This document shows positions 3,634-63,923 of a stretch of DNA of 64,000 bases, one piece after another. Within the stretch, counting starts at the first letter, position 1. The number at the start of each line of letters is the position of its first letter. The notes beneath the pieces were generated by a model, which made no database searches, was not told the origin of the DNA, and saw only the letters and a list, made by a program, of their open reading frames with translations. Position numbers and translations under genes: made by a program. Source of the DNA: Callorhinchus milii. Its lineage: Eukaryota. The stretch covers positions 85,872,001 through 85,936,000 of the forward strand of contig NW_024704742.1 of NCBI RefSeq assembly GCF_018977255.1. Direction: 5' to 3'.

Positions 3634-4663
3634 TTTTTTGGTCAGCTGGGTGTCTTGACACATGTGGAAACCCATCACCATGCCTAAGAGTATCCAAACC
3701 AAGCTGAGATTTTCATGCATCCCACCTACACATGGAAATTCCAGGGCCAGTTCAGCTCCAAGGAGACACCACTTACCCCCCCCCCCACCCCCCCACAGGC
3801 CAATCAAGGTGGACTTCAGGCGCAGGGCATACAAAGGAGTGTTAACAAACTCGGACTCCAGGTAATGCCTTTCAGCAGCTGTCTCTCCAAGCCTCAAGAG
3901 TTTTCTCATCAGCTATCTGGTGGGCATCTATCTTCGGCGTGGTAGGAGGACATTTACACAACAACTTGTGACGTGCCAGCCACCTCGATGTTCTTAAGGT
4001 CCAAGTCCAATGCCATGTACCAGGCTTACTCAGCACCAGCTGTTCAATCCAGGTTCTCATGTGAGCGGGTTTAGCAAATAGCTGTGCCCGTTGCAAAGCG
4101 ACTCCGCCTCCAGGGGCTTCGCAACCGATCACGTAGGCTGTGGGTATGTTGGAGGGGAATGGAGAATTTGAAATCGCTTAATACAAAGTTGCAGGACTAA
4201 TTCAGGAATTGCATGCTGTATCACCCAGAGCATCACAATCGATTGTTAATGAAAGATTCCTTGTGGCAGAAATCTGATATTGTAATCTTACGAAGAGGAT
4301 GAGAAATACCTCATTGTCATGCACACTTTGATGTTGTGTACTTGGCATTATAGCTGAAAATCGATTCTATTGTCGCCTCTTTTAATATAAATAATAGATT
4401 TCAAGACAGAGTCACGGATAATGATGAAGAATGCAGTTTTTAAAAAAAAGTGTACTCTTGGACATTGAGGCCAATTGAAGTACTAACTCATCACAGACAG
4501 GAATTGCATTTGAGTCCTTCAGGGTCTTCACAGCTGACTTGACAATCAATCTCTGGGATTTCCACGTGTAGGTTGGAAGCATGGAAATCTCAGCTTGGCT
4601 TGGATACTCTTAAGCATGGTGATGGGTTTCCGCATGTGTCAAGACACCTGGCTTACCAAAAAA
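3634..4663. repeat. Inverted repeat, 111-bp arms (3634-3744 / 4553-4663)
   Basis: 100/111 matches by manual reverse-complement alignment. Confidence 0.95.
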
Positions 4664-4859
4664 AAGTGGCTTTCTATACTGAGCCATCAGGGGGAGCCCT
4701 GGCAGTGATCAAGCCATCTGCTAAATGTGGCTTCCCTGTTTTTTGAGCGGATGCTGCTTGTGTTGATTGTTCAAAACATTTAAAATGTTGCCCTCTACAC
4801 TCCTTAGAGCGTGCAGTTTATATTTGTGTGTGGTGGGTGCTATATAAATGCAAGTTGTT

Positions 4860-5095
4860 GACCATCGGTGGTCAGGCCTTCAGACTTCTGCCACCACCCA
4901 TTGGAACTCCATCCCACAGTCACTTCACCTCGCTCCCTCCCTTACCTCCTTCAACGTTTCAAGGCCCTCCTCTTCAGTCACCCTCCTATCCCTACCCTCC
5001 CTGATTACAGCCCTCAGGTCAGATCCACATCCCTGACTGTACAGCATCTTGGGACGTCCTCCTAATGTAAAGGCGCTATACAAATGTAATTTGTT
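4860..5095 (+). mobile_element. L2 LINE 3' end
   Basis: ccatcggtggtcaggccttcag...tggaactccatccc...gggacgtcctcctaatgtaaaggcgctatacaaatgtaa L2-type tail. Confidence 0.75.
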
Positions 5096-6923
5096 GGTTT
5101 GCCCATTCGGTTTGCTCCATTATAGGTGGCCAAACGTTTAGCCATTCTTCCCCTGTTCTCCATTCCAGAGTTTCTCAGTTTTGCCCCCACACTCTCTGCC
5201 TTAAGACTTTTCAGCCAGTCTTTAAGTTACCTGCTGCCTTCTCCAACTCAATTGTTTATAAATTGTTGACGACACTACCTTGACCTGATAATCAAGCTGG
5301 GCCTAATACCCATTAGATTAAAAAAAGTTTCTCTTTAATATAAACTGCTTTTCCAAATCTATAACTGGAGCACAAGCTTCCAGAAAATGAGGTTAGATCC
5401 ACAGCTTATGATTCATCTGGAAGGTATAGTGGCTTGAAGGGAATATCCATGGAGGCTTTCAACTGAGTTTTCAGTTTGGGTTGTCTGATTCAATATATTT
5501 TCTAACTAATATTTTAGCTGAACGGCAAGATATGCAACACATATTGAGATGACTTGTTTTGTCTGAAGTACCATAATGCTCTACTAGACAAGTTCGGATG
5601 AAGAAGGCCCCTCAGCCTATTTGATTCCATCCTTCAAGAATACATGCTCTACTGTCGTCGTGTTACTTATGTCATTGAAGAACAATATTTGTCTTTCTTT
5701 AAACTTTTCCTTGTAATTTTTGCTGAAACGGAAGTTTTGAGTCATTGGTAGGAGGTGGCGCTTTGAGCTATAAATTTACTGGAAACTATTTCAATTATTT
5801 CCTGAATCGGTTTCTGAATGAATGTCCACTTCCTTGTGATTATAATAAAAAAATTAAAAAAAACAACTCTGGCCCTATTCGTTATAGCCTCTGGCAACCC
5901 CACTGCACATTACTCTGACTCCCAGCAAAGAAAAACAATCTTTAGAAAGTTGCAGTTTTGTAATGCATACCCCACGATTGTCTTGTGCATTTGTGGGAGC
6001 TTTACAACAAAAGGCAGCTTTACAGATGGTACTTTGTGTGCTATGTATGAAATATTATTTGCCTGCTGGTGTTTGGCATTCATCAAAAGTTCCTTTCATC
6101 TTTAGCCCAGTCTAACTGTGATCAAAGTGGCTTGAATGCCTTTTTACAGATTAGGAATAATCCAACTTGGGCGCCCTTTTCAGTTAATCTGGCACTGTGC
6201 TGCATCCTGGCTTGATGTCAAAAATCCTTCTTGGATCTGTACACCCTCGTCAGTGAAGATGGATTAGCTAAGTAGTTTTAGAGTTCAGAATGAAGAGATA
6301 CTGTCATATCTGAGACAATTCAGTAGCAAACAGAATACCCAGATTTTCTGGGAGATGTTATACTATGTAGTTTTTCAGAAGCTGGAATTTACCATAATTT
6401 CACTTTGGGCATCATCCAACTTCAGTGTTTATATACTGTGTGAACTCATGACTTGACATGCTTCAGTCTTAGCTTTGCGAGCATTGTCATTAAACTTAAG
6501 AACATGCCGGAATTTTGGAAAATTCTTAAATTCAGTCTATTTGGAAATTACTTTTCCGCAAACTTTTTTTAAAAAAACTTAAGTGATTGTAGGAAGGAAG
6601 GAAAGAATTCCACAGTCTTATCACAGCGTTGAGATGTCTCAAAGCACTTCACAGAATATACTGTAAAGTGAATTGACTGTCTATTTTGAAAAGCGGCAGC
6701 AATTGCAATTGAATTTAATTAAATTGAATTGTATCGTGCATTGAGTTCTCATATGGGGCGGATGCAGGAAGCGCATTTAGGCCACTAAGCTTCCTGTATT
6801 CTTCATGCAGAAGGGTGTTGTAATTTCCACAGAGCATCTCTGCAACATAGGACTACTTTAGACATCCCTCACTAGTCTATTTTATTAACCTTCCTTAACC
6901 AAACTGCCAATGTAATGCTTAAT

Positions 6924-7190
6924 TCATAGAATTTTACAGCATAGAAGTAGGCTATTCGGCCCATCGAGCCTGTGACAGCTCTTTGAAAGAGCTACCAACT
7001 AGTTGCATTCCCCGCTCTTACCCCATAGCCCTACAAATTTTTCCTATCTAACTACCAATTTAATTCCCTTTTGAAAGCTATTATTGAATCTTGCTTCCAC
7101 CACCCCTTCAGGTATTCCAGACCGTAACAATTCTTGGGTAAAAGGAATTCTCCTTGTCTCCCCTCTAGTTCTTTTGTGGGCAACTTTTGC
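6924..7190 (-). mobile_element. CR1 3'-end fragment
   Basis: catagaattttacagcatagaagtaggctattcggccc..., homologous to the CR1 tails at 8222 and 39657. Confidence 0.8.
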
Positions 7191-15870: not shown

Positions 15871-15914
15871 GTCCATTCCCTCCGCTCAGCAGGCCAGACG
15901 CACGCCAGAGGAGA

Positions 15915-28520: not shown

Positions 28521-28552
28521 CTATTACTTGAGCACATGTGCTCAAGTAATAG
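28521..28552. repeat. Perfect 32-bp palindrome
   Basis: CTATTACTTGAGCACA|TGTGCTCAAGTAATAG. Confidence 0.97.
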
Positions 28553-43204: not shown

Positions 43205-43337
43205 ATAATTGCTAGTGGGATTCTTTAATGGGAATTAACGCACTATAATGGGGTGTGTTATAATGGAATCGACTTCAAGATCCTCACACTCGTGTTGAAA
43301 TCCATACTTGTAATTGTAACTCAGGAATCACTATTAA

Positions 43338-47680: not shown

Positions 47681-47684
47681 GTCT

Positions 47685-48325
47685 GTTGTGTCTGTTTGTG
47701 GGTGTCTCTGTTTGAGTGTATCTGTGTGTCTCTCTCTGTATGTGTCTGTTTGTGAATGTCTCTGTACATATATGTCTGTGTATGTCTTCTATATATGTGT
47801 GTGTGTTTCTGAGTGTCTGTGAATGTGTATGTGTCTCTATGTGTGTGTATGTTTCTTTGTGTCTATGAGTGTGTTTGTGTCTCTGTAAAAATGCATGTCT
47901 CTGTGAGTGTGTGTGTGTGTGTGTATGTTGTGTCTGTGAGTGTGTGTCTCTGTCTGTGAGTGTGTCTCTATGTATCTGTGCATGTGTGTATCTCTCTCTT
48001 TGTGAGTGTGTATGTGTGTGTGTGTGTCTCTCTGAGTGTATGTGTGTGTGTGTGTCTCTCTCTGGGTCTGTGTGTGTGTGTCTCTCTCTGGGTCTGTGTG
48101 TGTGTGTGTCTCTCTCTGGGTCTGTGTGTGTGTGTGTGTCTCTCTCTGGGTCTGTGTGTGTGTGAGTATGTGTCTCTCTCTAGGTCTGTGTGTGAGTGTG
48201 TGTGTATGTCTCTCTCTGGGTCTCTGTGTGTGTGTGTGTGTCTCTCTGAGTCTGTGTGTGTGTCTCTGTGTGTGTGTGTCTCTCTGGGTCTGTGAGTGTG
48301 CGGGTGCCCCTCTCTGGGTCTGTGT
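47685..48325. repeat. Compound (TG)n/(TC)n microsatellite with a higher-order ~28-30-bp unit
   Basis: tctctctgggtctgtgtgtgtgtg repeated from ~48056; a shorter related tract at 47113-47215. Confidence 0.95.
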
Positions 48326-49208
48326 CCAGTGCTGAGCCTTGAGAGGCAGGAGGCGGTGAGCTCCTGTTGCTCCGCAGTCAGGATACTGCTCCTGAGTGTA
48401 TGTTTTGGCGGATCTCCAGGCTCTTTGGGCTGTTGAAGAAGAAATTAATTTTTTTTTGACAACAATCCAACATGTGTTATTTCCTCATGTTTAGTTTTTA
48501 TCAGTAAAGTGAAAAACCACAAGAACAACTTGCATTTATATAGCAACCTTCACATGGGGTAGAATCCCAGAGCGCTTATGTAGATTGGCAGTAAAACGTA
48601 CCTCAATAGCACCAATCAACTTCCCCCAACCCAAGCACAAATTTCCCTGCAATTTTTGGCAAGTATTTCTACACTTTTCTATTGGCCCAGGTGATTGGTT
48701 ACATTACAAAGTGCGGCAGTTTGAAAGTTGGTCAAGAGACCCGTTTCCCCCACTTATCTCGAGGGGGACTTCCTGACAGGCTGCAGCAACAGCCGGCATT
48801 ATTTCCACTCTCTGCGCTGCGTCCTCCCAAACAACCACCCGCTCCTGCCGCTGCCCTAAGAGGACAGTTCACCGGGGATGGAGGAAGCGAGTGGAAGTTG
48901 GAAATGGTCTTGGGACGGATGAAATCATCCTCTACCCGCATGCTTCGTTGGACCATCCAGCTGTAGAATATTGGAAATTTTTGAGAGCAGTCCAAATTTT
49001 TATACTGTTCCTGAAGAAAAAATCTGGCTTCCAAATGTAGGACGGAATTGAAGAATTGTCTTAAACTTTCTAAGAGAAAGTTGCCTTACAGGCTAAGACC
49101 AGAGTTTTTTTTTGGCCTCTGCTTTTCTTGGAATATAGCAGGTGGTAGTTGGAATAATTTTCAATGGATAATACCTAACATATGCTTGATCTTCCTGTGA
49201 TATTTCAG

Positions 49209-49349
49209 AAAACTGTCCTGATCAAAACTTTGCACTTAGAAACTGGAACCCGGGTCACAATGCACAGAGACGGGTCGTCATCAGGAAAGGGCAGCACTTC
49301 CGACTGGATTCATCGGCGACCGTTCATTGCATCACCATTCAGGATGGAG
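49209..49349 (+). CDS. CEMIP2: CEMIP2 coding exon 2 (start of G8 domain), 141 bp
   Basis: tatttcag|...G|gtagag; ENCPDQNFALRNWNPGHNAQRRVVIRKGQHFRLDSSATVHCITIQDGG. Confidence 0.93.
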
Positions 49350-49469
49350 GTAGAGCTGGAAATAACATTATGCGCACGGCTCTTTTGATTAATCTTTCTT
49401 GTTCGTGATGTTGTCTCCATCAAAGATTCTTGGGTGAAATTTTCATTCAGCTTTGTAGTGCAGTGTTGG

Positions 49470-49820
49470 GTATCAGCCTGGCTTGTAGCTGGTAGCACTC
49501 TCACCTCTGAATTAGAAAGTTGTGGGTTCAAGCCCCAGACTGGGATTTGAGCCCATAATCTTAGCTTCAGTGTAGTGCTGAGGCAGTAATTTATTGTCAG
49601 AGCTGCTGTCCTTTGGATAAGGTGTTAATCCGAGGTCCAGTCTGTCTGTTCAGGTGATGTTAAAGATCCCATGGCACTATTCGAAAAGAGAATGGAGTTT
49701 GTCTCAGTGTCCTGGCAAACAATCCCCCAAATAAAATTGGTCATTCACTCCATTGCTGTTTATGAGACATTGTTGTGTAGATTGTGGCCGTCTACCAATA
49801 CACAGTCACTGCACTTTACA
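49470..49820 (+). mobile_element. Deu-type SINE (further copies ~7450-7735, 13775-13930, 15180-15420, 26245-26530, 37290-37590, 46495-46880, 51885-52000, 52474-52590, 53478-53740, 59330-59640, 59790-59965, 61378-61755, 62780-62930)
   Basis: Shared head cagcctggctcagttggtagcactct..ttgtgggttcaa and core ctgcctgttcaggtggatgttaaagatcccatggcact. Confidence 0.85.
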
Positions 49821-49968
49821 ATAAAAATATTTTAAAAATCTGGGCTGCTGCTCCTCCCCCTGAAACCGCTAATTTATCTAATTGCCAGATTTCAACTGTT
49901 TATTCAAGTCAATTGTTATTTGGTTTCCGAGCAAAACTGAAGGTTTGTTTTCTCTTTGGGCTTCTTAG

Positions 49969-50527
49969 GTTCATTAGTCTTTGCTGACAGTGTGGACGGC
50001 TCAAAAAATATTTCCTTAAAATCCCGTTACATTCTGCTGAAGGATGGGGGAGCGCTTCACATTGGAGCAGAGAAATGCCTGTATAAATCCCGAGCCACCA
50101 TCACGCTGTACGGCAGATCTGACGAAGATGAGGAGGTGCCGGAGTTTGGGAAGAAATTCCTGGGGGTTGATGCGGGAGGCATCCTGGAAATGCACGGCAC
50201 CAAGAAGTTATCCTGGACCCTGTTGACCAAGACTCTGCCTGCGTCTGGCTTAATATTCGGGTCCTCCTTATACACACCACCCAACCGTGGGTTAAATGTC
50301 TATGTGGTCGACCAGGACACGGGACAAGTGCTGGCGAAGGAGAATTTTGACACCTACGAAGAGGTTCGTGAGAGCAAGAGACTGGAGGCTTTCCTCAAAT
50401 CCCAGGAAACGGGCCGAATAATTGCTATTGCTGTCAAAGACTCCGCTGCTAAAAATCTCCATCCACAAACAAAGAAGTTTATCCAGGAGCTTCTTGGAAG
50501 TAATTACGTCCAAGTTTTAAGTTACAG
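49969..50527 (+). CDS. CEMIP2: CEMIP2 coding exon 3 (gene exon 4; G8 and GG domains), 559 bp
   Basis: cttcttag|...AG|gtaagg; SLVFADSVDGSKNISLKSRYILLKDGGALHIGAEKCLYKSRATITLYG...RGLNVYVVDQDT...FDT...RIIAIAVKDSAAK...LSYR (ORF 49956..50531). Confidence 0.96.
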
Positions 50528-50589
50528 GTAAGGAGTAACTGGACACCGTTAACATTGCTGACAACATTAACCTGGTCAAATCGTTAGTT

Positions 50590-51360
50590 GTACTGCAGTT
50601 AGAGTATTGTGAATAGTTTTGAAACTTCACTTTAGGAAAGATGTCATGGACACTGAGAGGATGAGAGATTTATGAGGTTAATACCAGGGATGAGTGGTTT
50701 CGATCTATTAGCAATGACTAGAACAATGGTGGCCAACCTGTGGCCCCCAGGGACGTAATGAAGTGCCTCCCGAACATTTGCATGAGTCTTAGGTAAGTCT
50801 GTGTTCGATCGCCAGTGTGTTTTCTTGATTGATAAATCCCCAGACACCATAACGCTGTACGGCAGATCCGACGAAGATGAGGAGATGCTGGTGAGGAGAT
50901 ATTTAAGGCATAAGTTAAGAAATACTCAATGACGAAAATTAATTTTGTTGGCTAACTATTAAGGTCTGATTTCACTGGAACTGGGAAGGTTGAGCGGAAA
51001 CCTATGGGGCTTTGGCAGTCGATGGTGAGAAATTATTTTAAAGGGTTGGTCAGTCAGTGATTCAAGGGCATGGTTAGTAAGGGAGCAAAGGTGGAGATAG
51101 GAAGATTTGTTTTACGCAATGAGAGTTTTGGTTTGTGGAATGTCCTACTAGGAGGGGTGGTTGAGAATAGAAAGATACAATCCATATTACTTTCGAGTGG
51201 GATCTAGCAAGATATCTTAAATGAAATAATTTGCAGGGGATTGGGGGAAAAGGCAGGTAAGTGGACTGAATGGATTCTTCTTTCAAAGAGCCAAGACAGA
51301 CACGATGATCTGAATACAATAATAATAATGGCCTTCTTCTGTGCTGTAAAGCTATGGAAT
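50590..51360 (+). mobile_element. Old CR1 3' remnant interrupted by a hAT-like fragment (~50724-50965)
   Basis: tttaggaaagatgtc...ataccagggatga on the left; tttacgcaatgagagt...gtggaatg...ctttcaaagagcc...ggccttcttctgtgctgtaa on the right. Confidence 0.65.
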
Positions 51361-51691
51361 GCTTACTTTGCATTTCCAGCCTTGCGTGACAAATTGATAA
51401 ACCTGGGAACTTAGCTACTTGTTGCTGGGGATGTACATCTGCATCAGTGTGGGTAGTTGGCTTGTGTATGTGTGTGAATTGTGGGTATGCAATGTTCTAC
51501 TGTACATGGAAATTCACGCTCGAGAACAACAACGCCACCAAGTGGTTAGTTGGAGAGTCTTAACTATGAAACTGGACATACAGCTCACGAGCAGCCCCGG
51601 CTGATGTTCATCATGTTAAACATTAACAAGCACGGTCCTTCTGCGGAAAGGTCATTCCATTATTTACTTTTTGTCTTATTTTCTCGGACAG

Positions 51692-51861
51692 GCAAGCGTG
51701 GGCCCTGGTGAGTGTTATTCACGGTGGTAACCGGTCCTGTAATGAAGCAGTTCGAAACTACGAGAACCACGACACCGGGGGGAAGGCAGTCGCTCGCAAG
51801 GAGTTTTTCACTGTGGATGGAGTGAAGTTTGTCGTGTCTGCCTCCAGCGAATGGGAAAATG
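51692..51861 (+). CDS. CEMIP2: CEMIP2 coding exon 4, 170 bp
   Basis: ttttctcggacag|...G|gtactg; QAWALVSVIHGGNRSCNEAVRNYENHDTGGKAVARKEFFTVDGVKFVVSASSEWEN. Confidence 0.93.
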
Positions 51862-53016
51862 GTACTGAAAGAGATTTTTCTGATGTTAAACTGAGTTTCC
51901 ATCTGCCTGTTCAGGTGGATGTTAAAAGATCCTATGACACGAAAAGAAAAGGGAGTTTCTCTTTCCCGGTGTCCTGGCCACCGACAATCCCCCAGATACA
52001 ATGATACAGAGTCTGGGGTATTTGTGTAGAAATTTCCCTTCAGCAGAATAAATGGTTTTGGGATTCCAGGTTAAGATATAATTTTGCCATTTATTTATAT
52101 TGTGCCTTGAGATGACCTGATGATCCACAAATCGGAGATTTTAGCTTCCTGCGATAAACAAAAGCTGCCTTCCAGGTCATCAGGTTGCGCACTGATTGTA
52201 ACTTCCTGCTTTGCACATGCACAGAAAATAGAAAGTGGTGCCATAGTGTCCTGCTGACTCCCTTTTTAACGTGAATGCACATTTGGAGAGTCAAATCTCA
52301 CAATAACATGGGCTGCGATTTTATGGATCCCAATGTTCCATTTTTGACTAAGATGACTACTTTATGGGCATGTTTTACTTCCCCACAAAGTGTCTGACAT
52401 TTGCTAAAACTGCACCAGTTTTGCAGTGTGCATATTCTTCACGTGGGCATTACACAAGCAATGGTTGTCAAACCGTCAGCCTGGCTCAATTGGTAGCACT
52501 CTCCCCTCTGATTCAGAAGATTGTGGGTTCAAATCCCACATTGGATTCTTTAAGTTCAATCCAGGCTGACACTCCAATGCCCTGCTGGGAGGGTTGGGGC
52601 TGCAATAACTTTCTCTTTTTCTTATTTTTTCCCCTGCTCTTCCAATGGCACTGACTTGTGTTAGGTGCAGTTGTTTAATTTATGGGTTCGGATGTGCAGT
52701 GTATTTTTCTAAACACTTAAAAATTCTACACGTAGCAACAAACCCTTATTCAGAGGCCCAATTTATATAAAAGCTATTTTGCCCCAGCCCCCTGAATACT
52801 TACTGAAGACGGGTTTGACTGTCGTAACATTGTGCAGCTCAGTAGTTATAGAGCTATTTCAGATTTGTATCTCACCACTTTACAGTCTTTTTCGATTATC
52901 TTATCCAGTTTTCATTTAATTTAAACTCTTGGCATATGAGCAGTTTCTAAATGACTTTAGAAGGAAGAACAGTTACCAGTGTTGTTGTATGAGTAACGGT
53001 GTCTCTCCTGGACCAG

Positions 53017-53205
53017 GCTTGCCTATCTCGGATTTCCGGGTGGAGGTATCTGACGGCATTGTCCTGGACCTGCTGGATGAGGTGGAAGGCTGGAGAGAGG
53101 ATGACAAAATCGTTATTGCCAGCACTGACTATTCCATGTACCAAGCCGAGGAATTCACTCTCCTCGCCTGTCCCGAGTGTAGCAGCCGTCAGGTCAAAGT
53201 CAAAG
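53017..53205 (+). CDS. CEMIP2: CEMIP2 coding exon 5, 189 bp
   Basis: ctcctggaccag|...G|gtcggt; GLPISDFRVEVSDGIVLDLLDEVEGWREDDKIVIASTDYSMYQAEEFTLLACPECSSRQVKVK. Confidence 0.93.
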
Positions 53206-53991
53206 GTCGGTCAAAGTGATTTTGGACAATCCATCCATTACTGTAACTATTTGTCTGAAAGATTGGGGCATAAGTTTTCAGACAGTATCAATTTTAAGCT
53301 AAAAAAGCATGCTCCCGACACAGGAGGTGCAGAATAACAGACTGTTCAATATTACAACTTCATAATAGAATTATTTAGAAGCCTGGGCATTGAAGCTTTT
53401 TTTTCTCTTGTTTCTTGCCTACTCTCCCAAGGGCACTGACTTGTGTTGGGTGCAGTTGTACGGGAGCCTGGCTTGTGTGTCAGCCTGGCTCAGTTGGAGG
53501 CACTCTTGCCTCTGAATCAAAAGATTGTTGGTTTAAGCCCTATGTCAGGTTCTTGGAACTCATATAGTCCAGGCTGACTCTCCAGTGCAGTGTTGGGGGG
53601 TGCTGTGTTTTGGAGGTGGTTTGTGGAACATTGCTGTGTGCAAATTAGCTGCCAAACTCATCCACAACACAGTCACTGCACTTTACTGTATATCCCGTAT
53701 CCTGACATAAGAAGTGCTACACCAACTGTAAGGATTCTTATTGTTATTATACCAGCGGCCTTTCCTCATGTGACCCTTGTAATCGAGTGTTGGGCGAGTT
53801 ATCCAACTGTGATAAAGGGATGGAGCATAAAAAACAATGCCCCTTCCCCATCCACAACTGACATTCAGACGTGTACTGGAGCAAGTGGGGGTGGGGGGTG
53901 GGGGTCAGTAGTTTATTTGTGACCTGCTGTAGCTAAAATTACTGTCTGCGCTTGTTTAATATCAACGCTTCTTTATTGCCTCCCTGTGCAG

Positions 53992-54161
53992 AACAACCCA
54001 AATTTATTCACATTGGAGAGATTATGAATGGGGTGGATATGAGGGCGGAGGTAGGAATTTTAACCAGGAACATTGTCATCGAGGGGGAGATGGAGGGGTC
54101 ATGCTACAGCAATAACCAGTGCCAGTTCTTTAAACAAGACACCTTCGGTGGACATCTAAAG
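53992..54161 (+). CDS. CEMIP2: CEMIP2 coding exon 6, 170 bp
   Basis: ccctgtgcag|...AAG|gtacgt; EQPKFIHIGEIMNGVDMRAEVGILTRNIVIEGEMEGSCYSNNQCQFFKQDTFGGHLK. Confidence 0.95.
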
Positions 54162-55209
54162 GTACGTCTTGCTGACTCTCGAGCATAATTAGAATATAAC
54201 CTGTGAAGTAAAATACCTTGAAGGTTTTACCAAGACTCCAAAATATTTTCTGTCTAAGGTTGTATAGGGTATCATGATACCATTACGATGTCTAATAAGT
54301 CTTAAAGAAAATGATGATATATACATTTTTAGATAATAGGATAGATATCATTACTTTTTGGTCACCCTGTATTTCCACTGTTTTTTAGTAGAAACTAGTA
54401 GAATGCATTACAAAATTCCCATAGGAAAGTTTGTCTACAGCCAACAACTCTCACTGAATTGCCACAAAACACACAGTCACTACAGTTTACGGTATGTCCG
54501 ATGAAGTGATTTGAGACATCCTCCTGACGTGAAAGGAGCTATACCAAATGTGAGGATTACCATATAAAGGTTTACCACCTCCAGTTCATTTATTTAGGAA
54601 ATTCAATAATAATCCTTACATTTAATATAGCACCTTTCACATCAGGAGGATTTCTCAAAGCACTTTACAGGGCTTACTGTAAAGTCTAGTGACTGTATTC
54701 TGCAGGTGGAACAGAAGTAGACCATTCAGCCCCACTGAGCCTAATGGAAGTCTTTTTAATCTATTCTCCGTGTCTCTTAGTATCTGTCTCTCATTGGAGA
54801 TAAACAGAGAAACCGAATCCTATAGACTTGGGATAGAGAAGGGAATGAAATGAAAAATGCAGCATAAATTAGTAGATCCCTTCAGTATTAAATATAAAAT
54901 ACCCAGACTTGCTGGAGACCCCTCTTCTCTTGCCCCCTTCCCTACACTCCGAAGTGGTCTCAATGCCGTGCCCTGAATTCCAGGTTGTATATTTGTCTCT
55001 GGCTTTAGAACAAATCTCACCGTTAATCTCCTGAAATTTGTTTTTAACATACCTGTGTATTTAGATGGATCACTTACAAAACAGTTGCTACACTTTATAG
55101 TAAATCCGGCAAAGTGTTTTGAAACATCCTCCCAGTGTGAAAGCAGGTATATCAAATGCAAGTATAATTATTAGAGATGCGTGTAATTTATTTTGTTTGT
55201 TTGTTGAAG

Positions 55210-55419
55210 GTTTTGAGGAATTTCACGTCTGTCCACGTCTCCAACGTGGAGTTAACCCGCATGGGTCAGCAGGTGCTGGGCAGTTACCCCGTGCACTTTC
55301 ACCGCTGTGGGGATGTGGATGAAGTGGGGGGTTACAGGTCACCCACGTACCTGAACAGCCTGGCCATCCACCACTGCTTCTCCAGATGTGTCGCGGTGCA
55401 CACCACCAATGGCCTGTTG
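55210..55419 (+). CDS. CEMIP2: CEMIP2 coding exon 7 (gene exon 8), 210 bp
   Basis: ttgttgaag|...TTG|gtaagt; VLRNFTSVHVSNVELTRMGQQVLGSYPVHFHRCGDVDEVGGYRSPTYLNSLAIHHCFSRCVAVHTTNGLL (PbH1 region). Confidence 0.95.
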
Positions 55420-55479
55420 GTAAGTGTTCCCTGCCAGAGGTTGTGGAGAGTGGTTGAACTGTTTGGTAATATACAATAC

Positions 55480-55695
55480 AAATTTATGCTTATACAGTGG
55501 CTTTCTCGTTGGGAGGTCGTCCCAAGGTGCTGGACAGTAGATGCTTTGCACCCGAGCTGTGGTGGGGTGGGGAAGATGGTCACGGATGGGGCAAGACCAT
55601 GGAAGGATTTGAAGTTTAGGATAAGGATCTTGAACTTGATCCACTGGGAGATGGGGAGTCAGTGGAGCCTGGTGAGGATGGGGGTGATAATCTCG
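55480..55695 (-). mobile_element. L2 remnant
   Basis: ggatcttgaacttgatccactgggagatggggagtcagtggagcctgg plus tail. Confidence 0.7.
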
Positions 55696-55744
55696 CAGAG
55701 TGTAATGCGGAAGAGGATAATCTGGATAATCTGGAGTTTTCTTT

Positions 55745-56110
55745 ACATAGAATATACAAGCCATTCAGCCCAACTGGTCAGTGCTGGTGTTTATGCTTCA
55801 CATGAGCCTCCTCCTGCTCTCCCTCAACTAAACCTTCAAGCATAACCTTCTATTCCTTTCTCCCTCATGTACCTATCCAGCTTCCCCTTAAATACATCTA
55901 TGCTATTCGCCTCAAAATACCCAGACTTGCTGGAGCTCTCTGTTCTCTTGCCCCCTCCCCCACACTCCGACAGTGTTCTCAATGCTGTGCCCTGTATGTA
56001 TTTGTCTCTGGCTTTCGAACAAATCTCACTGTTAATCTCCTGAAGTTCCAGATTCCCACCACTCTCTGAGTAAAGAAGTTTCTTCTGACTTTCCTATTTG
56101 ATTTATTGGG
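55745..56110 (-). mobile_element. CR1-type 3' fragment interrupted by a local duplication (55914-56044)
   Basis: catagaat..gccattcagccc tail; resumes with gttccagattcccaccactctctgagtaaagaagtttc. Confidence 0.7.
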
Positions 56111-56419
56111 AAGGAACATATTTGTCGAATCCAGACCCTTTTTAAACACAGCAATAAACTTCTCAGTTCCACTAAGCGGATTGTAGATGTACGAAAAGTG
56201 GAGTCTACTTTAATTCTACAAGGTTTGAGCGTTCCAGGTTTTCTCGAGCAGATTAATGGATTAACTTTCATAATTGCGAGGCTCCGGGAAATCTGTTTGA
56301 TGCCAAGAATTACTTTCAAGGTCACTATCTAAATTTAAACCTAAAGCAGAAAGAAAACCAAACTGTCAACCTCTCACTTGGTTGTCATATGATTTGCGAC
56401 TAGGGCCCTCTGCCTCCTC

Positions 56420-57285
56420 GTTCTTGACGATCTCTCCCTGTGCTTGGCTTCTCCTCTGGCACTCGCACAGTCACATGCGGCGTTCCTCAGGGCTGTATCC
56501 TCGGTCCTCTCCTCTTTACTATCTATCTGCTCGGCGATGTCATCCGCAGACAGGGGGTTAACTTCCGCTTGTGTACAGTTGACATCAAACTCTATCTCTG
56601 CCTTCACTCTCAATCCCAGGACTACAACAACAACAATTTGCACTTGTATAGAGTCCTCCACGCAGGGTGGCATCTCAGAGCGCTCAGACTACTGCTGTTC
56701 TGACCAATTGCCTGTTAAATATCAAGTTCTGGATGAGAGCTAACCTTCTTTAGTTGAATGTTGACAAGACGGAGGCTTTCCTGCTTAGCTTGTGTCAAAG
56801 CCAGGCATTGATAGCATCGTCCTGCATGGCTGCATATTCCACCTCGTGATGCCAGTGCACAACCTTGGTGTTTTGTTAGACTCCCGACTGTGCTTTAAAC
56901 CCCACATCCGTTCTCTGACCCACCTCTGTAACATTGCCCGCCTCCTCCACTAACTCCCCTCAGGCCTCCAAGGCTCATCCATGCATTTATTATGTCCAAG
57001 CTTGACTACACCCACTGTCTGCTCATCCTTTCCGCAGCCTATCACTCCCATCCTCACTTGGCTCCATTGGCTCCCCATCTCCCTGCAGATTGAGTTCAAG
57101 ATCCTAATTCACATCTTCAAATCCCTCCATGGTCTTGCCCATCCCCACCACTGGGCTTTCTTCAACCATCTGTAGTTGTAACCTCCCCACTCTCATCAGT
57201 GCTCAGGTGCCCATCGAAGGCTATGAAGTGCTTTGAGACGTCCTCCTGACATGAAAGGCATTAGGCAAATGCAAATTGTATCATA
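56420..57285 (+). mobile_element. Degraded L2 RT fragment
   Basis: VTCGVPQGCILGPLLFTIYL..; PITPILTWLHWLPISLQIEFKIL..KSLHGLA; interrupted at ~56623-56690 by an inverted L2 tail. Confidence 0.85.
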
Positions 57286-57484
57286 TTTAAAATAACAATT
57301 GTACCGTAGAAGTCTGACACGGGAGGAGATTGTTCAACTCATTATGTTAGTCCCTGAGCCTATCAGCCCATGCTTGGGGATAGGGAGGGGAAATGTGTGT
57401 GTATATGTGTGGGGGTGGGGTGTTGGGAAATGACAAAACTGCGGTTGCCACATGAAAACTAGTCTTTATATGTGTTTTGCACAG

Positions 57485-57690
57485 ATAAAGGACACGATTG
57501 GTTATGACACAATGGGCCACTGCTTTTTCCTGGAGGATGGTATTGAGGAAAGGAATATTCTTTACCACAACCTGGGCCTGCTCACCAAACCCGGCACCAT
57601 CCTGCCAACTGACAGGGATCAATTCTTCTGCACCGAGATTCTCGATAAAGTCTACGGAAAGTACATTCCCGTTCCAGCCGCTGACTGCAA
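57485..57690 (+). CDS. CEMIP2: CEMIP2 coding exon 8, 206 bp
   Basis: ttttgcacag|...AA|gtaaat; IKDTIGYDTMGHCFFLEDGIEERNILYHNLGLLTKPGTILPTDRDQFFCTEILDKVYGKYIPVPAADCK. Confidence 0.95.
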
Positions 57691-58199
57691 GTAAATGTTA
57701 TACAAATTTCATATATCTATATATCCCACTGGTATCATGTCTCCTTTACTGCATGCTGAAAAGACCTTTTATACCGAGAAACTATACCTATGATCTGCTA
57801 TGTTACCCACATTGATGTGGAAAGAGCCTAAATGGCCTAGATTTTTATGATGCCCACAGAACGTGTGTTCCACTGTCACGTTTGAGAAGTGATTGACATA
57901 TCTCTGTGGCAAAGTAGCTTGAAGACTTTGTGGTCAGTTTACTCGATCAGCTATTTTGTGATCTCTCAGAGCGTGTACTGTGATGTGCTGTAATGTGAAG
58001 CAGGATACAGTGGTATGGTAGGAGAAACCTGGTTGTGAATTTTATAAACTGCAGGCTCCGATGGCCAGTATGTTTTTTGAAGGTTATCTGAGCGCTGATT
58101 TAAGAAAATATTGAATCACGCTTTTGGATTTCACACTTTTTTGCTGAAGAGTTGCCGAGAAGCTACAATTAGTTTTTAAAGCATAGTTTTTAAAGCCAA

Positions 58200-58382
58200 T
58201 TCAGATTCCATAACTTTCAAAAGGGATTTGGATATGTGCTTGAAAAGAACAAAATTTCAAGGCTATGCGGTAAGAGTGGAGAAGTGGGACTAATTTGATA
58301 GCTCATTCAAAGAGCCGACACAGGCATGGTGGGCTGAATGGCCTCCTTCTGCACTGTGGGATTCAACGATTCATGATTCATG
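58200..58382 (+). mobile_element. CR1 3' tail fragment
   Basis: ttcaaagagccgacacaggcatggtgggctgaatggcctccttctgcactgtg...ttcatgattcatga. Confidence 0.75.
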
Positions 58383-58440
58383 ACAAATAAGAGAACTTGG
58401 TGCGAGCCTGCTCCTGACTTGTGGCTTTCTCCTCCCTCAG

Positions 58441-58510
58441 GGCAGTCTCCACATTCTGGATTGCCAACCCCAACAATCACCTTATTAACAATGCAGCTGC
58501 TGGCTCACAG
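58441..58510 (+). CDS. CEMIP2: CEMIP2 coding exon 9, 70 bp
   Basis: cctccctcag|...CAG|gtaagt; AVSTFWIANPNNHLINNAAAGSQ. Confidence 0.95.
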
Positions 58511-60625
58511 GTAAGTGCCAACCGCAAGCCTGAACCACGCCTGGCAGCTTGGCAGTGATCCGAGGCACTGATGATGGTTCAACCAGACTTTGGGGCTGTA
58601 GATATTCCCACAGCCCTGAAGGGTAGATGGGATCTTACCTGCACAAGCATCATGCTGCCCTGTTGGCAATTTTGTTTGCATATAGCAAGTTTAGATTTAC
58701 ACTTGGTAGTTTTGCTAAGTGTCTTTTTATTTGGGTGGGTGTGGGTGGGAGGGGGCGTAGGAGAGGAATCCTGTAGTGTATAGGTTGGACCACTCAAAGC
58801 GAGAGGACCTGGGTTCGATTCTCGGGCAGGGCAAAACCTTAGGCAGGTTTTCTTACTCCACACATCAGTTTACCAAGCAGTAAGTAGGAACTCAATTGTT
58901 AGTCGATTGGTGAATCAGTTTTCTTGGGTAATAAACCTTTCAAAACAAAAAATAATAAAAATAATTTGGTCACTCAATCAACGACTGTTTGTGGTATACT
59001 GCTGTGCGCAATTGGTTGCCGTGTTTCACCCACAAAATGTACAGTCAAATTTACAGCATATTCTGTGAAGCTCTTTGAAATGTCTCAATGATGTGATAAA
59101 TCACAAGGATTATTATTATTACAAATGCAAGGATTATTATTAAGGAGGAGTGAAGTGAAAGTTTGCGTTGTGATTTTATAAAATCTTTCAGTTAGTGAAA
59201 CTAATGCAGGAGCCGAAGGGTAAATGAATAGGTGATGTTTCTGCTTCAGGCACGGAGAATTTTCCCTGGTTTGAGATGGCAAACTCCCTCTAACAAATAA
59301 TGTAGATACTCTCTCTGGAGCTCTGCATTGTTGGAGGTGCCACCCTTAGGACCTCAGCAAAACATCTGGTCCAGTCTGCCTGTTCAGGTGGATGTTGAAA
59401 GATCCCATGGCATTATTCAAAAAAAGAAGGGAGTTTCTCCAGTGTCTTGGCCAATAATCCCCCAAATAAAATTTGGGGATCGCTCACTTATTCCATGGCT
59501 GTTTGTGGGACATTGCTGTATGCAAATGGACAGTCGCATTTGCCAATAAAACCCATAATCACTATGCTTCATGGTAAATCCTGGTATTATATAGGTGACC
59601 CTATATAAATGCTATACAAATGCAAAGATTATTACTAATAGGGAATTATTAATGAACATCTAGTTTCTGTGTTACTGCAGCAGTTCTTCCCATAGTAGAG
59701 CAAGAATTCACATTTTTAGAGCTCTTTATAATGTTGAGATAATTTAAAGTACTTTGCAAGTAATCATGGTCAAGCATCGTGACTTTTTATAGGCAAACAC
59801 TGCAACCTGTGAATGTCCCACAAATGGCCTTGAAGTGAATAAGCAATTTATTGTTGGCCATAACCCTGGAACAAACTCCTGTCTCTTCAAATGATGACAT
59901 GGGACTTTTAGTGTTTGCCTGAACAGGCAGATGGGACCTCAGTTTAACGTCTCCTCTGAAGGATGACGGAGATGAATTCCGTTGTTTCATCCCACCCTCA
60001 GAACATCCAGTTAAATTGTGTCAAAAGATTAAAGCCTGCTCTATATAAGAAAATAGGCTAATTGCATTATAGGAATGGTGAGTCTGATTAAAATGAACCT
60101 GCTGTGCTAAATGCTTGTAATAATTAGAGCAGGCACTTTGGGAAAGTGATATGTCCAGGTGCCTTTTTTGCCTGGAGGACGTCTCAAAGCACATTACAGC
60201 ATATAGTGTAAAGTGTAGTTACCGTCGGTTTTGTAGGCACTTTCGCTGCTTTGTAAGTGAGTTGCAGCAGGAAATCTCACCCCATCGTTAGTTTTTCTGT
60301 TGTAAACCAATTTTCTCTTCTGAGAGGTGTTTGACTTCCCCAGTCCTCCCCTTCCCCCAGTTCCACATTAATAGAATATGCAGTCAATTCACTTTCCAGT
60401 ATATTCTGTGAAGCTCTTTGAGACGTCTCAAAGATGTGATAAGGTACTATATCAAATGCAAGGATTGTTATTGTTACTCGTGTCAGCTTTCTTGTGAGTG
60501 TTGGTGGCTGGTGGACTGTGAGAGCTGAGCTCAAGGCCAATGCATTCAGAGGGGAGGATTATACACTGAAAATTTTCTTTTGTTGTGCAAGCTGTAATGA
60601 TTCCTGTGTTCTTTGCAATGTTCAG

Positions 60626-60754
60626 GACACCGGGATCTGGTATCTGTTCCACAAGGTTCCCACCGGAGACTCCCATGGTCTGTACCCAGAAAACAAAGCA
60701 GAGCTTACTCCACTGGGGACCTTCTACAACAACAGGGTTCATTCTAACTTCAAA
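60626..60754 (+). CDS. CEMIP2: CEMIP2 coding exon 10, 129 bp
   Basis: atgttcag|...AAA|gtaagt; DTGIWYLFHKVPTGDSHGLYPENKAELTPLGTFYNNRVHSNFK. Confidence 0.95.
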
Positions 60755-61259
60755 GTAAGTCATTTATAACCTAACCTGCACTCTCTAGCTGCAAAACCAT
60801 TAGGGCTCCAGCTATGAGGCATTTGACATACAGGGACTGTAACAAATGGGAAGGATTATTTTAAAGTTACTTTTTTATGAAATTTATTACTGTATGGGTT
60901 GGTGTATTTGTGCCACTGAACCTCAAAGCATCCTTCTGCATAAGATTAATCATGTTGTTTGACACTTGTGGATTTGGTTATATTTCTCTAGACTGTTTAT
61001 TCTTGATGCTCTTCTTGTACAGAGTTTCCTCTTCCCCTTTCACCTCTTGCTTCACTTGTCTTCTCACGCTCTGAGATTAATGGTCAGATTTTGGATCCGA
61101 TCTATATATGAAGGAAGCTTCCTTTTGTATAATTGCTAAACACTTCAGTAAACGATTGTGTGAATGCTGTGCGATAATAATGCTTTAGGAACCAACAGGC
61201 TGTGGACAGACATTGTGCCTGTGTTGAGTTATAGTGATGTGATTTGTTCTGGTTGGCAG

Positions 61260-61348
61260 GCAGGATTGTTCATTGACAAGGGAGTGAAAACCACCAACGC
61301 CAGCGCTGATGACCCAAGGGAGTACCTGTGTTTAGATAACAGTGCCAG
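61260..61348 (+). CDS. CEMIP2: CEMIP2 coding exon 11, 89 bp
   Basis: ggttggcag|...AG|gtgaga; AGLFIDKGVKTTNASADDPREYLCLDNSAR. Confidence 0.95.
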
Positions 61349-62081
61349 GTGAGAGTACCGAGAAGTCATCGATCTGTGTGTCAGCTTGGCTCAGTGGTAG
61401 CATTCTCGTTTCTGAGTCACAATCCCATGTCAGGACTTTGAACTCACAGTCTAAGCTGACACTCCAATGCAGTGCTGGGCCTGTGCTGAATATCAGAGGT
61501 GCCATCCTTCCGATGAGACGTTAAACTAAGGTTTATTTAGTTTAGTTAGTTCAAGTGAGTGTTAAAGATCCCATGAAAAAAAGGGAGTTTTTCCCTGTGT
61601 CCTGGTCAACCATCTCCCAAAATAAAATTGGTCACTCACTCCATGGTGGATTGTAGGATACTGCTGTTGCATTCGTCTATATAATACAGTCACTCCACTT
61701 TACAGAATATCCTGTAAAATGCTTTGAGATGTTTCAACAACATGATAAGGCATATTGTAAAACATTACTAAGGCACTTTATAGGTGGGTAATTGTTATCT
61801 GACTGTTTAGTAACAGGAGGAGACTATTCAGCCATCCAGCTTGGTCCTCCATTATATTAGCTCATGGTAGTCTTTCTTAAATTCCATTTCTCAGCCTTTT
61901 CTCCATGTCCCTTTAACACCCTTACTTGACAAGTACCTGTATATCTCCATTTTAATCAGCCTCTTGGAGACAGAGCGATCCACATCTTCTTCACGGGCCT
62001 CTTGTGTGAAGACGTGTTTCCTGGCTCCTCTCGGCCTACTTTAGCTCTAATTGAATGTACACTTTTTGTGGCTGTTTTAAG

Positions 62082-62213
62082 GTTTCGGCCACACCAGGAC
62101 GCTGACCCCCAGAAGCCTCGAGTGGCTGCTCTCATCGACCGGCTCATCGCGTTTAAAAACAACGATCACGGAGCTTGGGTGAGGGGAGGTGACATTGTGT
62201 TCCAGGACTCTGG
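62082..62213 (+). CDS. CEMIP2: CEMIP2 coding exon 12, 132 bp
   Basis: ctgttttaag|...GG|gtaggt; FRPHQDADPQKPRVAALIDRLIAFKNNDHGAWVRGGDIVFQDSG. Confidence 0.95.
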
Positions 62214-63159
62214 GTAGGTGCTGCCTCCTCTCGGCTGTGGCTGATGAGAGGAGAAGGTTGTGAGACTCTGAGACTGCACTGATTTCAATAAAATCCCTTG
62301 GTTTTGCTCAGTAGTTATGCTCCTGATCTGGACAGCAGGTGCCAAGAATGGCCATCTGAGGCCATAGATTAGGATTGTTTTGATTGTGGAATCTCTGCCA
62401 AAACTTTCGTATTTTTTGTAAAAAAAACCTGAAAGCAACAATGTTCCTTTCATAAAGCGGCAGCGAGCATGGGTCAGCAGTCCTGAAATCTGGACCTGTT
62501 CTTAATCCCTCGTCCTGCTGAGTGTGTGGATGCTCAGTTTACACTGGCTTCAAGGGGATACGAAGCTGAAGCCTGCTCTGTTCAGTCAGCTCCCACTTCA
62601 CTCCTGTTTGACCCTCAGTGAGTTCAGCAAGTTCATGGGATGCCAATCAAATAGTGATGATAATAATTTGTGTGATATATCACCACGTCTCAATGTGCTT
62701 CACAGGTAATTATTATTAAGTGTTCTCCCTCCCACTCCAGGACTCATGGGGAATCCTGCTTTGAGCTAGATTTTCTTTTGAATGTTTGTGGGAAGTTTGC
62801 ACTGTGCAAATTAGCTGTTACATTCATCTGCAGAATATAGTCACTAGACTTTACAGTGAATCCTGTGAATCGCTTTGGGATGTTCTCCCGACTTGAAAGG
62901 CACTGGATCAAAAGTAAGGATTAGTATTATTAGTCAGAGGTGAGGTAAGAAAACCTTTCGGAAATACTGATTTCAAGCTCTCTCTGTGAATCCTAAATAC
63001 CTCAGTGAGAAAACCAAAACTGAGGTGGTGTCCTGTCTGGGTGCATCATGGAGTATGATAGTGTATAACCATGTTTATCATTTTATAGTATGATAGTGTG
63101 TGTATGGTACCGTGTAACCATGATGTATATTTACCTGCGTTTCTGATTTAATTTTTCAG

Positions 63160-63195
63160 ATTTTCTGATAATGGAGTTGGATTGACCTTTGCTAG
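63160..63195 (+). CDS. CEMIP2: CEMIP2 coding exon 13 (36-bp mini-exon)
   Basis: atttttcag|...AG|gtaaga; FSDNGVGLTFAS, phase-consistent with both neighbours. Confidence 0.92.
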
Positions 63196-63923
63196 GTAAG
63201 AGTAGAGTTATTTATTAAGGATTATTATCTTTCATTATTAATCCAAATGAATGGAGGCAATTTTTAATACAGTAACTTTTTTTAAAGCTACAGGACAATT
63301 AAATCTTTCACTGCCATTGATTTGTACAGTCATAAGTTGTTATAACTCGGTAGTTTGAGCTTTGCAAAATCAGACTCCGTGTTATAGCGAGTCACATTAT
63401 ACTGTATCCACTGACATCACCAAATCATCGGAAGCGTATTGCACTGTATTTCTCATATAATGCAGGCCTCTGGTATGGCAACGTTATGTACAGACCTGGT
63501 GTAACAGGGTCTGACTGTCAGAAGAAGGGGAACAGGATGTTCTTCCCTTCTTTTCCTGATTTTTTTAAAAACTTAATTTTAGCCTCTAGTGGGTACCTCA
63601 CCCAAGGGCCGTTGTTAATACTTGAGCTTTGACAGTGCTTATAGGCTATTTTATTTGACCACCATCACAGACGAGTGCGGTCCAGTCCGATCCTCGCCTG
63701 GCTCACATCTTTGGGGAAATGGGGTGGGGGGGTGGGGGTCTCTGGACACTGATCAACAGTGGGTACTCTGGTTGATTTTGCACTTCCCTAATCCCGGGGA
63801 TATGAGGCCAGTTGTTCCCTCAAATGCTGCGGGATTTGAGGGAACTCGCAGCATTTGAGGGAACTCACAGCATTTACAAATAAAAATCTGCTGATTTCTA
63901 ATGAGTATCTGTTCCTCCATCAG

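What the first reader, a model, noticed from the sequence alone, without database searches (positions are those of the whole stretch)
3634..63875. Dense, recurrent 'local copy-and-paste' insertions templated from 0.1-1 kb away
Seen: at least nine sequence-unrelated segments of 27-140 bp have a near-identical partner close by. Inverted pairs: 3634/4553, 29212/29299, 32220/32789, 42253/43138, 43268/43645. Direct pairs: 27142/27315, 50083/50832, 52633/53418, 54896/55914. There is also a perfect palindrome (28521) and a fold-back (63814). In three cases one copy interrupts an older repeat that has an uninterrupted relative elsewhere in the window, which fixes source versus insert. There are no poly(A) tails or TSDs, a few bases are lost at some junctions, several pairs sit at ~90% identity and several offsets are 750-1020 bp. 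Established: templated insertions arise from Pol-theta end joining or template switching, but are usually shorter and closer to the break. Inference: this lineage may have, or have had, an unusually active repair/template-switch process that recycles neighbouring DNA, seeding intronic hairpins and exon copies. Slow sequence decay could also simply preserve such events longer. This is the best candidate for an undescribed process in the window.
Basis: partly seen in the sequence, partly recalled or inferred. Interest (0 to 1): 0.72.

Follow-up and report, generated by a model that had tools for sequence, protein, structure and literature searches.

The report
Local repair copies in elephant shark
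Five short stretches around an elephant-shark hyaluronidase gene are single copies of DNA lying 0.5-0.9 kb away, likely scars of germline break repair of a kind already described in humans; they occur at about 25 per million bases across this genome, and their abundance is likely explained largely by this lineage's slow mutation clock.

Summary
Every claimed pair is in the sequence, but they are not one class. Six have only self and neighbour as genome hits. Five of these lie 0.45-0.9 kb apart (32229/32789, 42253/43138, 50083/50832, 52616/53402, 54896/55914); 27085/27260 is an old near-tandem copy. 3634/4553 is two independent 3' ends of a common retroposon. 43268 and 29212 are repeat fragments of uncertain origin.

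The two events I could polarise show 2-bp microhomology plus a 19-bp deletion or an 8-bp filler. This is the repair-mediated duplication (RD) class of Pace et al. 2009.

A 1.8-Mb genome sample held 44 such pairs (24/Mb), all within 2.7 kb against 0.07 expected from dispersed repeats, peaking at 0.5-1 kb. One identical pair appears polymorphic among four other animals. The window is a mild upward fluctuation, not a hotspot.

Density is roughly 5-10 times Pace's human figure (wide interval), but per substitution only about 1-6 times a rough human long-read estimate, in the slowest-evolving vertebrate genome reported. So: known process, new lineage, no evidence for a new mechanism. The scan noted this class before, in this and other genomes.

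The parts
54896..55035 (+). Donor of a direct copy: intron DNA of CEMIP2, single-copy apart from its neighbour
   Evidence: 2 genome hits; 83% to the copy
55914..56044 (+). Acceptor: 131-bp copy inside a CR1-like LINE fragment; 19 bp of the LINE replaced, 2-bp (AA) microhomology at the left junction
   Evidence: intact relatives L125, L148, L199; the CR1 label is recalled
50083..50142 (+). Donor: 60 bp inside the CEMIP2 coding exon for the G8/ILEI region
   Evidence: 2 genome hits; exon mapped
50832..50891 (+). Acceptor: intronic copy of the exon piece, 90% identical, interrupting an old repeat whose intact relative lies at about 11940-12147; AT microhomology on the left, 8-bp filler that repeats the end of the insert on the right
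   Evidence: one relative only; spanned by contigs of X5 and X7
52616..52674 (+). One copy of a 59-bp direct pair, 85% identical; follows a truncated SINE head; direction of copying not fixed
53402..53459 (+). Partner of 52616-52674, on the far side of the exon at about 53016-53205
   Evidence: both copies on single contigs of X4, X5, X7
32220..32334 (+). Left arm of a single-copy inverted pair, 95% identical over 32229-32334; not polarised
   Evidence: 2 genome hits
32789..32903 (-). Right arm of the same inverted pair
42253..42318 (+). One arm of a 67-bp inverted pair, 93% identical; overlaps an older 54-bp direct copy (42235-42287 / 42407-42460, 85%)
   Evidence: 2 genome hits
43138..43204 (-). 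Inverted partner of 42253-42318
27085..27396 (+). Old near-tandem direct duplication (138 bp, 78%, gap 37 bp); single-copy but inside the 50-bp distance that Pace excluded
28521..28552 (.). Perfect 32-bp palindrome, single-copy; one of a common class (13 with arms of 14 bp or more in 1.8 Mb)
63814..63875 (.). Fold-back: an 18-bp segment whose reverse complement starts at 63847, within a 19-bp tandem run
   Evidence: on contigs of X4, X5
29212..29242 (+). 31-bp SINE/LINE tail, inverted to the tail at 29295-29325; possibly a local copy, possibly an independent short insertion
43268..43307 (+). 40-bp internal L2-like fragment, inverted to 43645-43684; origin unresolved
3634..3744 (-). Not part of the class: 3' end of a high-copy retroposon
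4542..4669 (+). Not part of the class: second, independent copy of the same retroposon end, with an A8 run
45829..63999 (+). Host gene: 13 coding blocks of CEMIP2/TMEM2 (cell surface hyaluronidase), continuing beyond the window
   Evidence: tblastn of P0002; exon 100% identical to Callorhinchus milii records

Best explanation
The five single-copy pairs 0.45-0.9 kb apart are likely repair-mediated duplications: neutral scars left when a broken germline DNA end likely paired by 1-8 matching bases with a site about 0.1-2.5 kb away, copied 30-350 bases in either direction, let go and was rejoined to the other end. Shown: the copies, their single-copy state, the distance law, both orientations, and microhomology, deletion or filler at the junctions that could be polarised. 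Inferred: that a double-strand break or stalled fork started it, and that synthesis-dependent strand annealing or microhomology-mediated template switching did the copying; the enzyme is not identified. The high standing density likely reflects an ordinary rate of such events against a very slow substitution clock, with at most a modest real excess.
For: Two genome hits only for six segments. 44 unique-looking pairs in 180 evenly placed 10-kb stretches, all within 2.7 kb, none at 2.7-10 kb, against 0.07 expected from two-copy dispersed matches; 20 of 44 have gaps of 500-1000 bp; 24 direct, 20 inverted. Junctions (read by eye): 55914 has AA microhomology and a 19-bp deletion; 50832 has AT microhomology and an 8-bp filler; L198 has 1-2 bp microhomology at each end; L025 has 4-8 bp at the right end. 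Pace reports mean 162 bp, mean distance 1.2 kb, microhomology 2-9, deletion 1-15, filler 1-68 nt and no poly(A) in 39 of 39 proximal cases. Frith and Khan: 32 same-strand and 27 opposite-strand local duplications in one human, and rearrangement edges often at transposon-fragment edges, as here (23 of 88 copies against 8.2 simulated). Species: exon 100% identical to Callorhinchus milii, reported to have the lowest neutral rate of the vertebrates compared (PMC3964593). Identities run from 69 to 100%, as steady accumulation would give.
Against: Only 2 of the 5 window pairs could be polarised, one with a single relative. Uniqueness of the 44 sample pairs was tested against 1.86 Mb, and genome-wide for only one. 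At least 1 of 44 is a 229-bp target-site duplication around a LINE (L168). The like-for-like density is 3-7 per Mb of repeat DNA (2 firm, up to 4 events) against 0.62 for human and 0.19 for zebrafish, so a real excess is possible; the 95% interval for 2 events (0.4-12) includes the human value. The per-substitution human benchmark needs a count of derived variants that I recalled. No other vertebrate DNA could be run through my pipeline.
Confidence: 0.72

Rival explanations
1. Same mechanism, but this lineage really makes or fixes such copies several times faster per year than other vertebrates, for example through more germline breaks from active LINEs or more use of template-switch repair.
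For: Pace-like density 3-7 per Mb of repeat DNA against 0.08-0.65 in ten vertebrates. 8-15 events per 100,000 substitutions for copies of 50 bp or more against about 2-4 in a rough human estimate. One 100%-identical pair appears polymorphic. 8% of repeat bases have a relative 95% or more identical.
Against: Counts are small (2-4 events). Pace's human-specific count is more than ten times below the long-read estimate per substitution (0.17 against 2-4 per 100,000), so Table 3 likely undercounts. For copies of 100 bp or more the ratio falls to 2.5-7.7 per 100,000. A slow clock raises the per-substitution ratio by itself.
Confidence: 0.15
2. Many copies are by-products of LINE/SINE integration: long target-site duplications, or flanking DNA captured at the element's junction.
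For: 23 of 88 copies abut a repeat edge against 8.2 +/- 2.5 simulated. L168 is a 229-bp direct pair with one LINE filling the whole gap.
Against: Only 1 of 24 direct pairs has a gap filled end to end by one element. Many abutting repeats are cut at internal positions or on both sides, as an insertion into an older repeat gives. About three quarters of copies touch no repeat edge. In the window the gaps of three direct pairs hold coding sequence.
Confidence: 0.07
3. The pairs are ends of low-copy transposons, chance neighbours from dispersed repeats, or assembly artefacts.
For: True for 3634/4553 and not excluded for 43268 and 29212. A few inverted sample pairs 1.3-2.4 kb apart could be terminal inverted repeats.
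Against: Six window segments and L198 have two hits genome-wide. Null expectation 0.07 against 44 seen. Copies differ by 5-22% in the window. Contigs of other animals span three of the features.
Confidence: 0.04
4. The inverted pairs or the exon copy are kept by selection as RNA hairpins or spare exons.
For: Several pairs straddle CEMIP2 exons; 32229/32789 is 95% identical.
Against: The exon copy differs at 6 of 60 sites, 4 of them at codon positions 1-2, and is an internal piece of the exon. The pairs that straddle exons are direct, so cannot pair. The two single-copy inverted pairs lie upstream of the first coding exon, and no transcript over them was tested. The identity spread looks like neutral decay.
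Confidence: 0.02

Closest known systems
Repair-mediated duplications (RDs), Pace, Sen, Batzer and Feschotte 2009, PMC2671141 (read parts 1-6 of 8; supplements not read)
   Same: Copies of 50 to a few hundred bp, one donor within 5 kb (mean 1.2 kb), microhomology, deletion or filler, no poly(A), exon pieces copied into introns, some still polymorphic.
   Different: No cartilaginous fish among the ten species. Density here is higher than in Table 3 (0.08-0.65 per Mb of transposon DNA). Median gap here is about 0.7 kb and, unlike Pace's peak, is not forced by requiring a transposon acceptor.
Localized non-tandem duplications, Frith and Khan 2018, PMC5829575 (passages; parts 2 and 4 of 7 read)
   Same: Local copies in either orientation (32 same, 27 opposite, 2 double in one person), some with deletion at the target; rearrangement edges often at transposon-fragment edges.
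   Different: Human polymorphisms from long reads, not an accumulated record; size floor set by read error.
Doublets, Thomas et al. 2004 (paper not held; known from Pace's description, and recall)
   Same: Short local paired duplications; Pace says they share many RD attributes. The ~1 kb spacing is recalled.
   Different: Recalled as exact 25-100 bp matches, mostly same-strand; here diverged pairs and both orientations.
MMB-TI (microhomology-mediated templated insertions), Osia et al. 2021, PMC8421209 (passages)
   Same: Germline templated insertions with junction microhomology, about 100 of 25 bp or more per person, some multi-template; fits the palindrome and fold-back.
   Different: Template distances were not in the passages I saw; described in humans.
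Polymerase-theta templated insertions (TINS), Carvajal-Garcia et al. 2020, PMC7165422 (passages)
   Same: Direct and inverted locally templated synthesis primed by short microhomology; may explain the 8-bp filler at 50892 and the 63814 fold-back.
   Different: Primary synthesis tracts rarely exceed 10 bp, far shorter than the 60-140 bp copies here.

Membership tests
Repair-mediated duplication (Pace 2009) | Inserted copy of 50 bp or more | tested here: met
   59-144 bp for the five window pairs
Repair-mediated duplication (Pace 2009) | Found at only one other place in the genome | tested here: met
   2 hits each for six window segments and L198; 42253 has an older partial third copy at 42407; not met for 3634, 43268, 29212
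Repair-mediated duplication (Pace 2009) | Donor more than 50 bp and less than 5 kb away | tested here: met
   gaps 454-875 bp for five pairs; not met for 27085/27260 (37 bp)
Repair-mediated duplication (Pace 2009) | Acceptor interrupts a repeat whose halves are collinear within 30 bp | tested here: met
   55914 (4 relatives, 19 bp lost) and 50832 (1 relative); the other three pairs lie in non-repeat DNA and cannot be polarised this way
Repair-mediated duplication (Pace 2009) | Microhomology, deletion or filler at junctions; no poly(A) tail | tested here: met
   read by eye for 55914, 50832, L198, L095, L025
Repair-mediated duplication (Pace 2009) | Empty orthologous site in a related species or individual | tested here: inconclusive
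   No related genome held. Window copies at 50832 and 52616/53402 are present in other animals. L198 appears absent from X4 and X6, judged from contig breaks only
Repair-mediated duplication (Pace 2009) | Made by synthesis-dependent strand annealing at a double-strand break | not testable with these tools
   inferred from junction signatures, as in the paper
Polymerase-theta TINS | Short synthesis tracts (rarely over 10 bp) from break-flanking DNA | tested here: not met
   median copy 70-82 bp, median gap about 0.7 kb; only the filler and the fold-back fit
LINE target-site duplication | Direct copies flanking one retroelement that fills the gap | tested here: not met
   0 of 4 window direct pairs; 1 of 24 sample direct pairs (L168)
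DNA transposon / MITE terminal inverted repeats | Multi-copy family with paired inverted ends | tested here: not met
   32229 and 42253 have 2 genome hits; 5 of 5 other loci of the 3634 family lack an inverted partner within 1.5 kb

The most novel reading that the evidence does not exclude
The elephant-shark germline makes or keeps repair-mediated duplications at five or more times the per-year rate of other vertebrates, with a characteristic reach of 0.5-1 kb and none beyond 2.7 kb. Its roughly 25,000 scars, some still segregating, would then be the richest natural record of how far a broken DNA end searches for a template.
Probability: 0.15. Interest if true: 0.55.

Novelty: new member of a known kind. 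Interest (0 to 1): 0.27.

Why it matters
The mechanism is known, so the window by itself is ordinary. What this adds is a measurement in a lineage that Pace et al. did not survey: about 24-27 pairs per Mb (roughly 25,000 genome-wide if the sample is representative), a distance distribution not biased by transposon acceptors, and a sign that the process is still running. If the per-year rate equals that of mammals while substitutions run slower, break-repair scars and point mutations follow different clocks. One whole-genome self-alignment on a few genomes could test that.

Tried and rejected
3634/4553 as inverted ends of one transposon: rejected; other copies have no inverted partner and end in A runs. 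Rfam found nothing there, so the family is unnamed.

Window as a hotspot: rejected; the 120 kb of flanks hold 3 pairs (25/Mb), the genome average, and P(5 or more in 64 kb) = 0.034 before selection among many windows.

A first search for interrupted repeats was swamped by chance collinear pairs (1772 clusters, 364 with non-repeat inserts). I replaced it with the donor-anchored version. From that table I dropped L034 (33 bp, under 50) and counted L148 (no empty relative printed, N run beside the donor) and L059 (one relative) only in the upper figure.

at 90% likeness was flooded by repeats; the 55914 junctions were not among the listed pieces, which says nothing about absence.

Thomas et al. 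2004 was not held. A paper search for the number of derived variants per human gave nothing I used (listing only).

Searches for RDs in cartilaginous fish (listings only) showed no such paper among 10 of 10, 25 of 39 and 10 of 309 listed, which is weak evidence of absence. Pace's supplements (all RD coordinates, breakpoints) were not read and could sharpen the comparison of orientation and distance.
Full report
Setting. The window is G000:C1:85872001-85936000 of a 992-Mb genome. The exon at 49971-50525 encodes G8 and ILEI domains, matches human cell surface hyaluronidase in the PDB and is 100% identical to Callorhinchus milii records, 67-72% to the next eight, mostly shark and ray, hits. Thirteen coding blocks of CEMIP2/TMEM2 map to 45829-63999. 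About a third of the window is dispersed repeat.

Checking the pairs. Self-BLAST finds all nine pairs, the palindrome and the fold-back. Genome searches split them into three groups. (a) Six segments return only themselves and the neighbour. (b) 3634-3744 returns 1528 candidates; all 39 other scored copies are 91-96% identical and the neighbour (90%) is not among them. Five fetched copies extend further 5', end in an A-rich run and have no inverted partner. These are two independent, 5'-truncated retroposon insertions. (c) 43268 and 29212 are pieces of abundant repeats. For 43268 the neighbour is the closest of 26 other copies in 1.86 Mb, but distant copies match up to 100% over 38 bases and share two bases that the neighbour lacks. 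For 29212 one copy is closer than the neighbour, yet insert and neighbour share a base seen in 6 of 291 tails. Both are unresolved. 27085/27260 is single-copy but near-tandem (gap 37 bp, 78%).

Independent support. Assembled contigs of four other samples from one study were laid on 48400-64000. One X5 contig spans 49799-50959 (exon donor and intron copy). X4, X5 and X7 contigs span both 52616 and 53402. X4 and X5 contigs span the fold-back without gaps.

Junctions (read by eye). At 55914 three intact relatives show the CR1-like element running on where the window has 131 bp of intron DNA from 875 bp upstream; 19 bp are lost and the left junction shares AA. At 50832 the one relative, within the window, shows AT shared on the left and an 8-bp filler on the right that repeats the end of the insert. 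The donor is coding sequence, which also fixes the direction. The other three pairs lie in unique DNA and cannot be polarised.

Genome-wide density. I fetched 180 stretches of 10 kb at preset, evenly spaced positions on contigs C1-C32. I kept pairs of 30 bp or more and 45 bits or more, outside tandem repeats, with neither copy matching elsewhere in the 1.86 Mb. Result: 44 pairs in 39 of 180 stretches, 24 per Mb (95% interval 18-33; 27.5 after edge correction). All lie within 2.7 kb, none at 2.7-10 kb. Two-copy matches between stretches (24) predict 0.07 local pairs. Gaps of 500-1000 bp hold 20 of 44. Orientation is 24 direct to 20 inverted, median length 82 bp, identity 69-100%. One pair (L168) is a 229-bp target-site duplication around a LINE. 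C1-C5 gave 32 pairs in 115 stretches, smaller contigs 12 in 65. The window has 5 pairs under this filter (6 with 42253, dropped for its third copy) against 1.8 expected, P = 0.034 and 0.009; its 120 kb of flanks have 3.

Still active. L198 holds a 95-bp, 100%-identical inverted copy 1.9 kb from its donor, inside an L2-like LINE, with two genome hits. In X5 the contigs break at both donor ends, the 95-bp piece has about twice the flank depth (16.2 against 8.2 and 6.0) and a contig crosses the right acceptor junction. In X4 and X6 one 2001-bp contig runs through the donor unbroken; X7 breaks at one end. This suggests a segregating insertion, but it rests on contig structure, not reads.

What it is. 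Pace et al. 2009 (PMC2671141; parts 1-6 of 8 read) describe 824 human copies of mean 162 bp, on average 1.2 kb from one donor, with microhomology, deletion or filler and no poly(A). They ascribe them to synthesis-dependent strand annealing, find them in ten vertebrates, and link them to the earlier 'doublets'. Frith and Khan (PMC5829575) list 61 localized non-tandem duplications in one human, in both orientations, and note that rearrangement edges often fall at transposon-fragment edges; here 23 of 88 copies abut a repeat edge against 8.2 simulated. Polymerase-theta tracts rarely exceed 10 bp (PMC7165422, passages), so that pathway fits only the filler and the fold-back. The window's five pairs meet the testable RD criteria. 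The pathway itself is inferred.

Is the rate unusual? A Pace-like count (insert of 50 bp or more interrupting a repeat) gives 2 firm and up to 4 events in 0.58-0.67 Mb of repeat DNA, or 3-7 per Mb, against 0.62 in human, 0.19 in zebrafish and 0.08 in chicken. The interval for 2 events, 0.4-12, includes human. Per substitution, copies of 50 bp or more run at 8-15 per 100,000 and copies of 100 bp or more at 2.5-7.7. Frith and Khan's 61 events over an assumed 1.5-2.5 million derived variants (recalled, not from a call) give 2.4-4.1, while Pace's human-specific count gives 0.17, so Pace's table likely undercounts. The remaining excess is about 1-6 fold. This species has the lowest neutral rate among the vertebrates compared in PMC3964593 (passages; no figure for the rate seen), and a shark's measured rate is 7 x 10^-10 per base per generation (PMC10587355, passages). 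An ordinary per-year rate against a slow clock would give such an excess. A truly higher rate is not excluded, because no other vertebrate genome could be run through the same pipeline.

Earlier notes of this scan reach the same class in other genomes and at other places in this one; they were leads, not evidence.

Verdict. Real for six of nine pairs, five of them RDs. Known kind, new lineage, with a first density and distance estimate. No function shown. Interest 0.27.

Noticed in passing
L198:4924-5018 and 6958-7052 (G000:C2:84004924 and 84006958): 95-bp, 100%-identical inverted copy inside an L2-like LINE; contig breaks suggest it is present in X5, partly seen in X7 and absent from X4 and X6.
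   Followed up: partly
L168:3563-5113 (G000:C1, about 50.5 Mb): 229-bp direct repeat (90%) flanking a 1.1-kb 5'-truncated LINE: an unusually long target-site duplication. L111:8102-9614 may be an older case.
   Followed up: partly
L025:2620-2954 and 3520-3854: 335-bp, 97.6% direct copy that joins a cut LINE to a cut SINE, with 4-8 bp microhomology at the right end; likely a young copy with a large deletion.
   Followed up: partly
L068:9620-9686, L106:3220-3296, L166:8173-8230, L186:9245-9313: Perfect hairpins with 29-35 bp arms and 0-7 bp loops; 13 perfect hairpins with arms of 14 bp or more in 1.8 Mb. Perfect arms suggest recent origin or ongoing homogenisation.
   Followed up: no
window 3634-3744 and 4542-4669: 3' ends of an abundant retroposon family (63 hits in 1.8 Mb, tens of thousands per genome) with short A runs; no Rfam match; family not named.
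   Followed up: partly
window 42235-42460: A second, older direct copy (54 bp, 85%) overlapping the 42253 donor, just before a possible non-coding exon at about 42471-42599 (AG/GT ends seen by eye).
   Followed up: no
sample-wide: Direct pairs pile up at gaps of 500-750 bp (10 of 11 pairs there are direct), while inverted pairs spread from 74 to 2400 bp. Small numbers; untested.
   Followed up: no
window 8776-8891, 13244-13342, 25848-25906: Short near-tandem or tandem duplications (33-36, 48 and 31 bp units).
   Followed up: no
window 47682-48325: Compound TG/TC microsatellite of about 640 bp in a CEMIP2 intron.
   Followed up: no
L213:6938-8080: 200-bp inverted pair (87.5%, gap 704) with an adjoining 38-bp direct piece from the same donor: a possible two-step template switch.
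   Followed up: no
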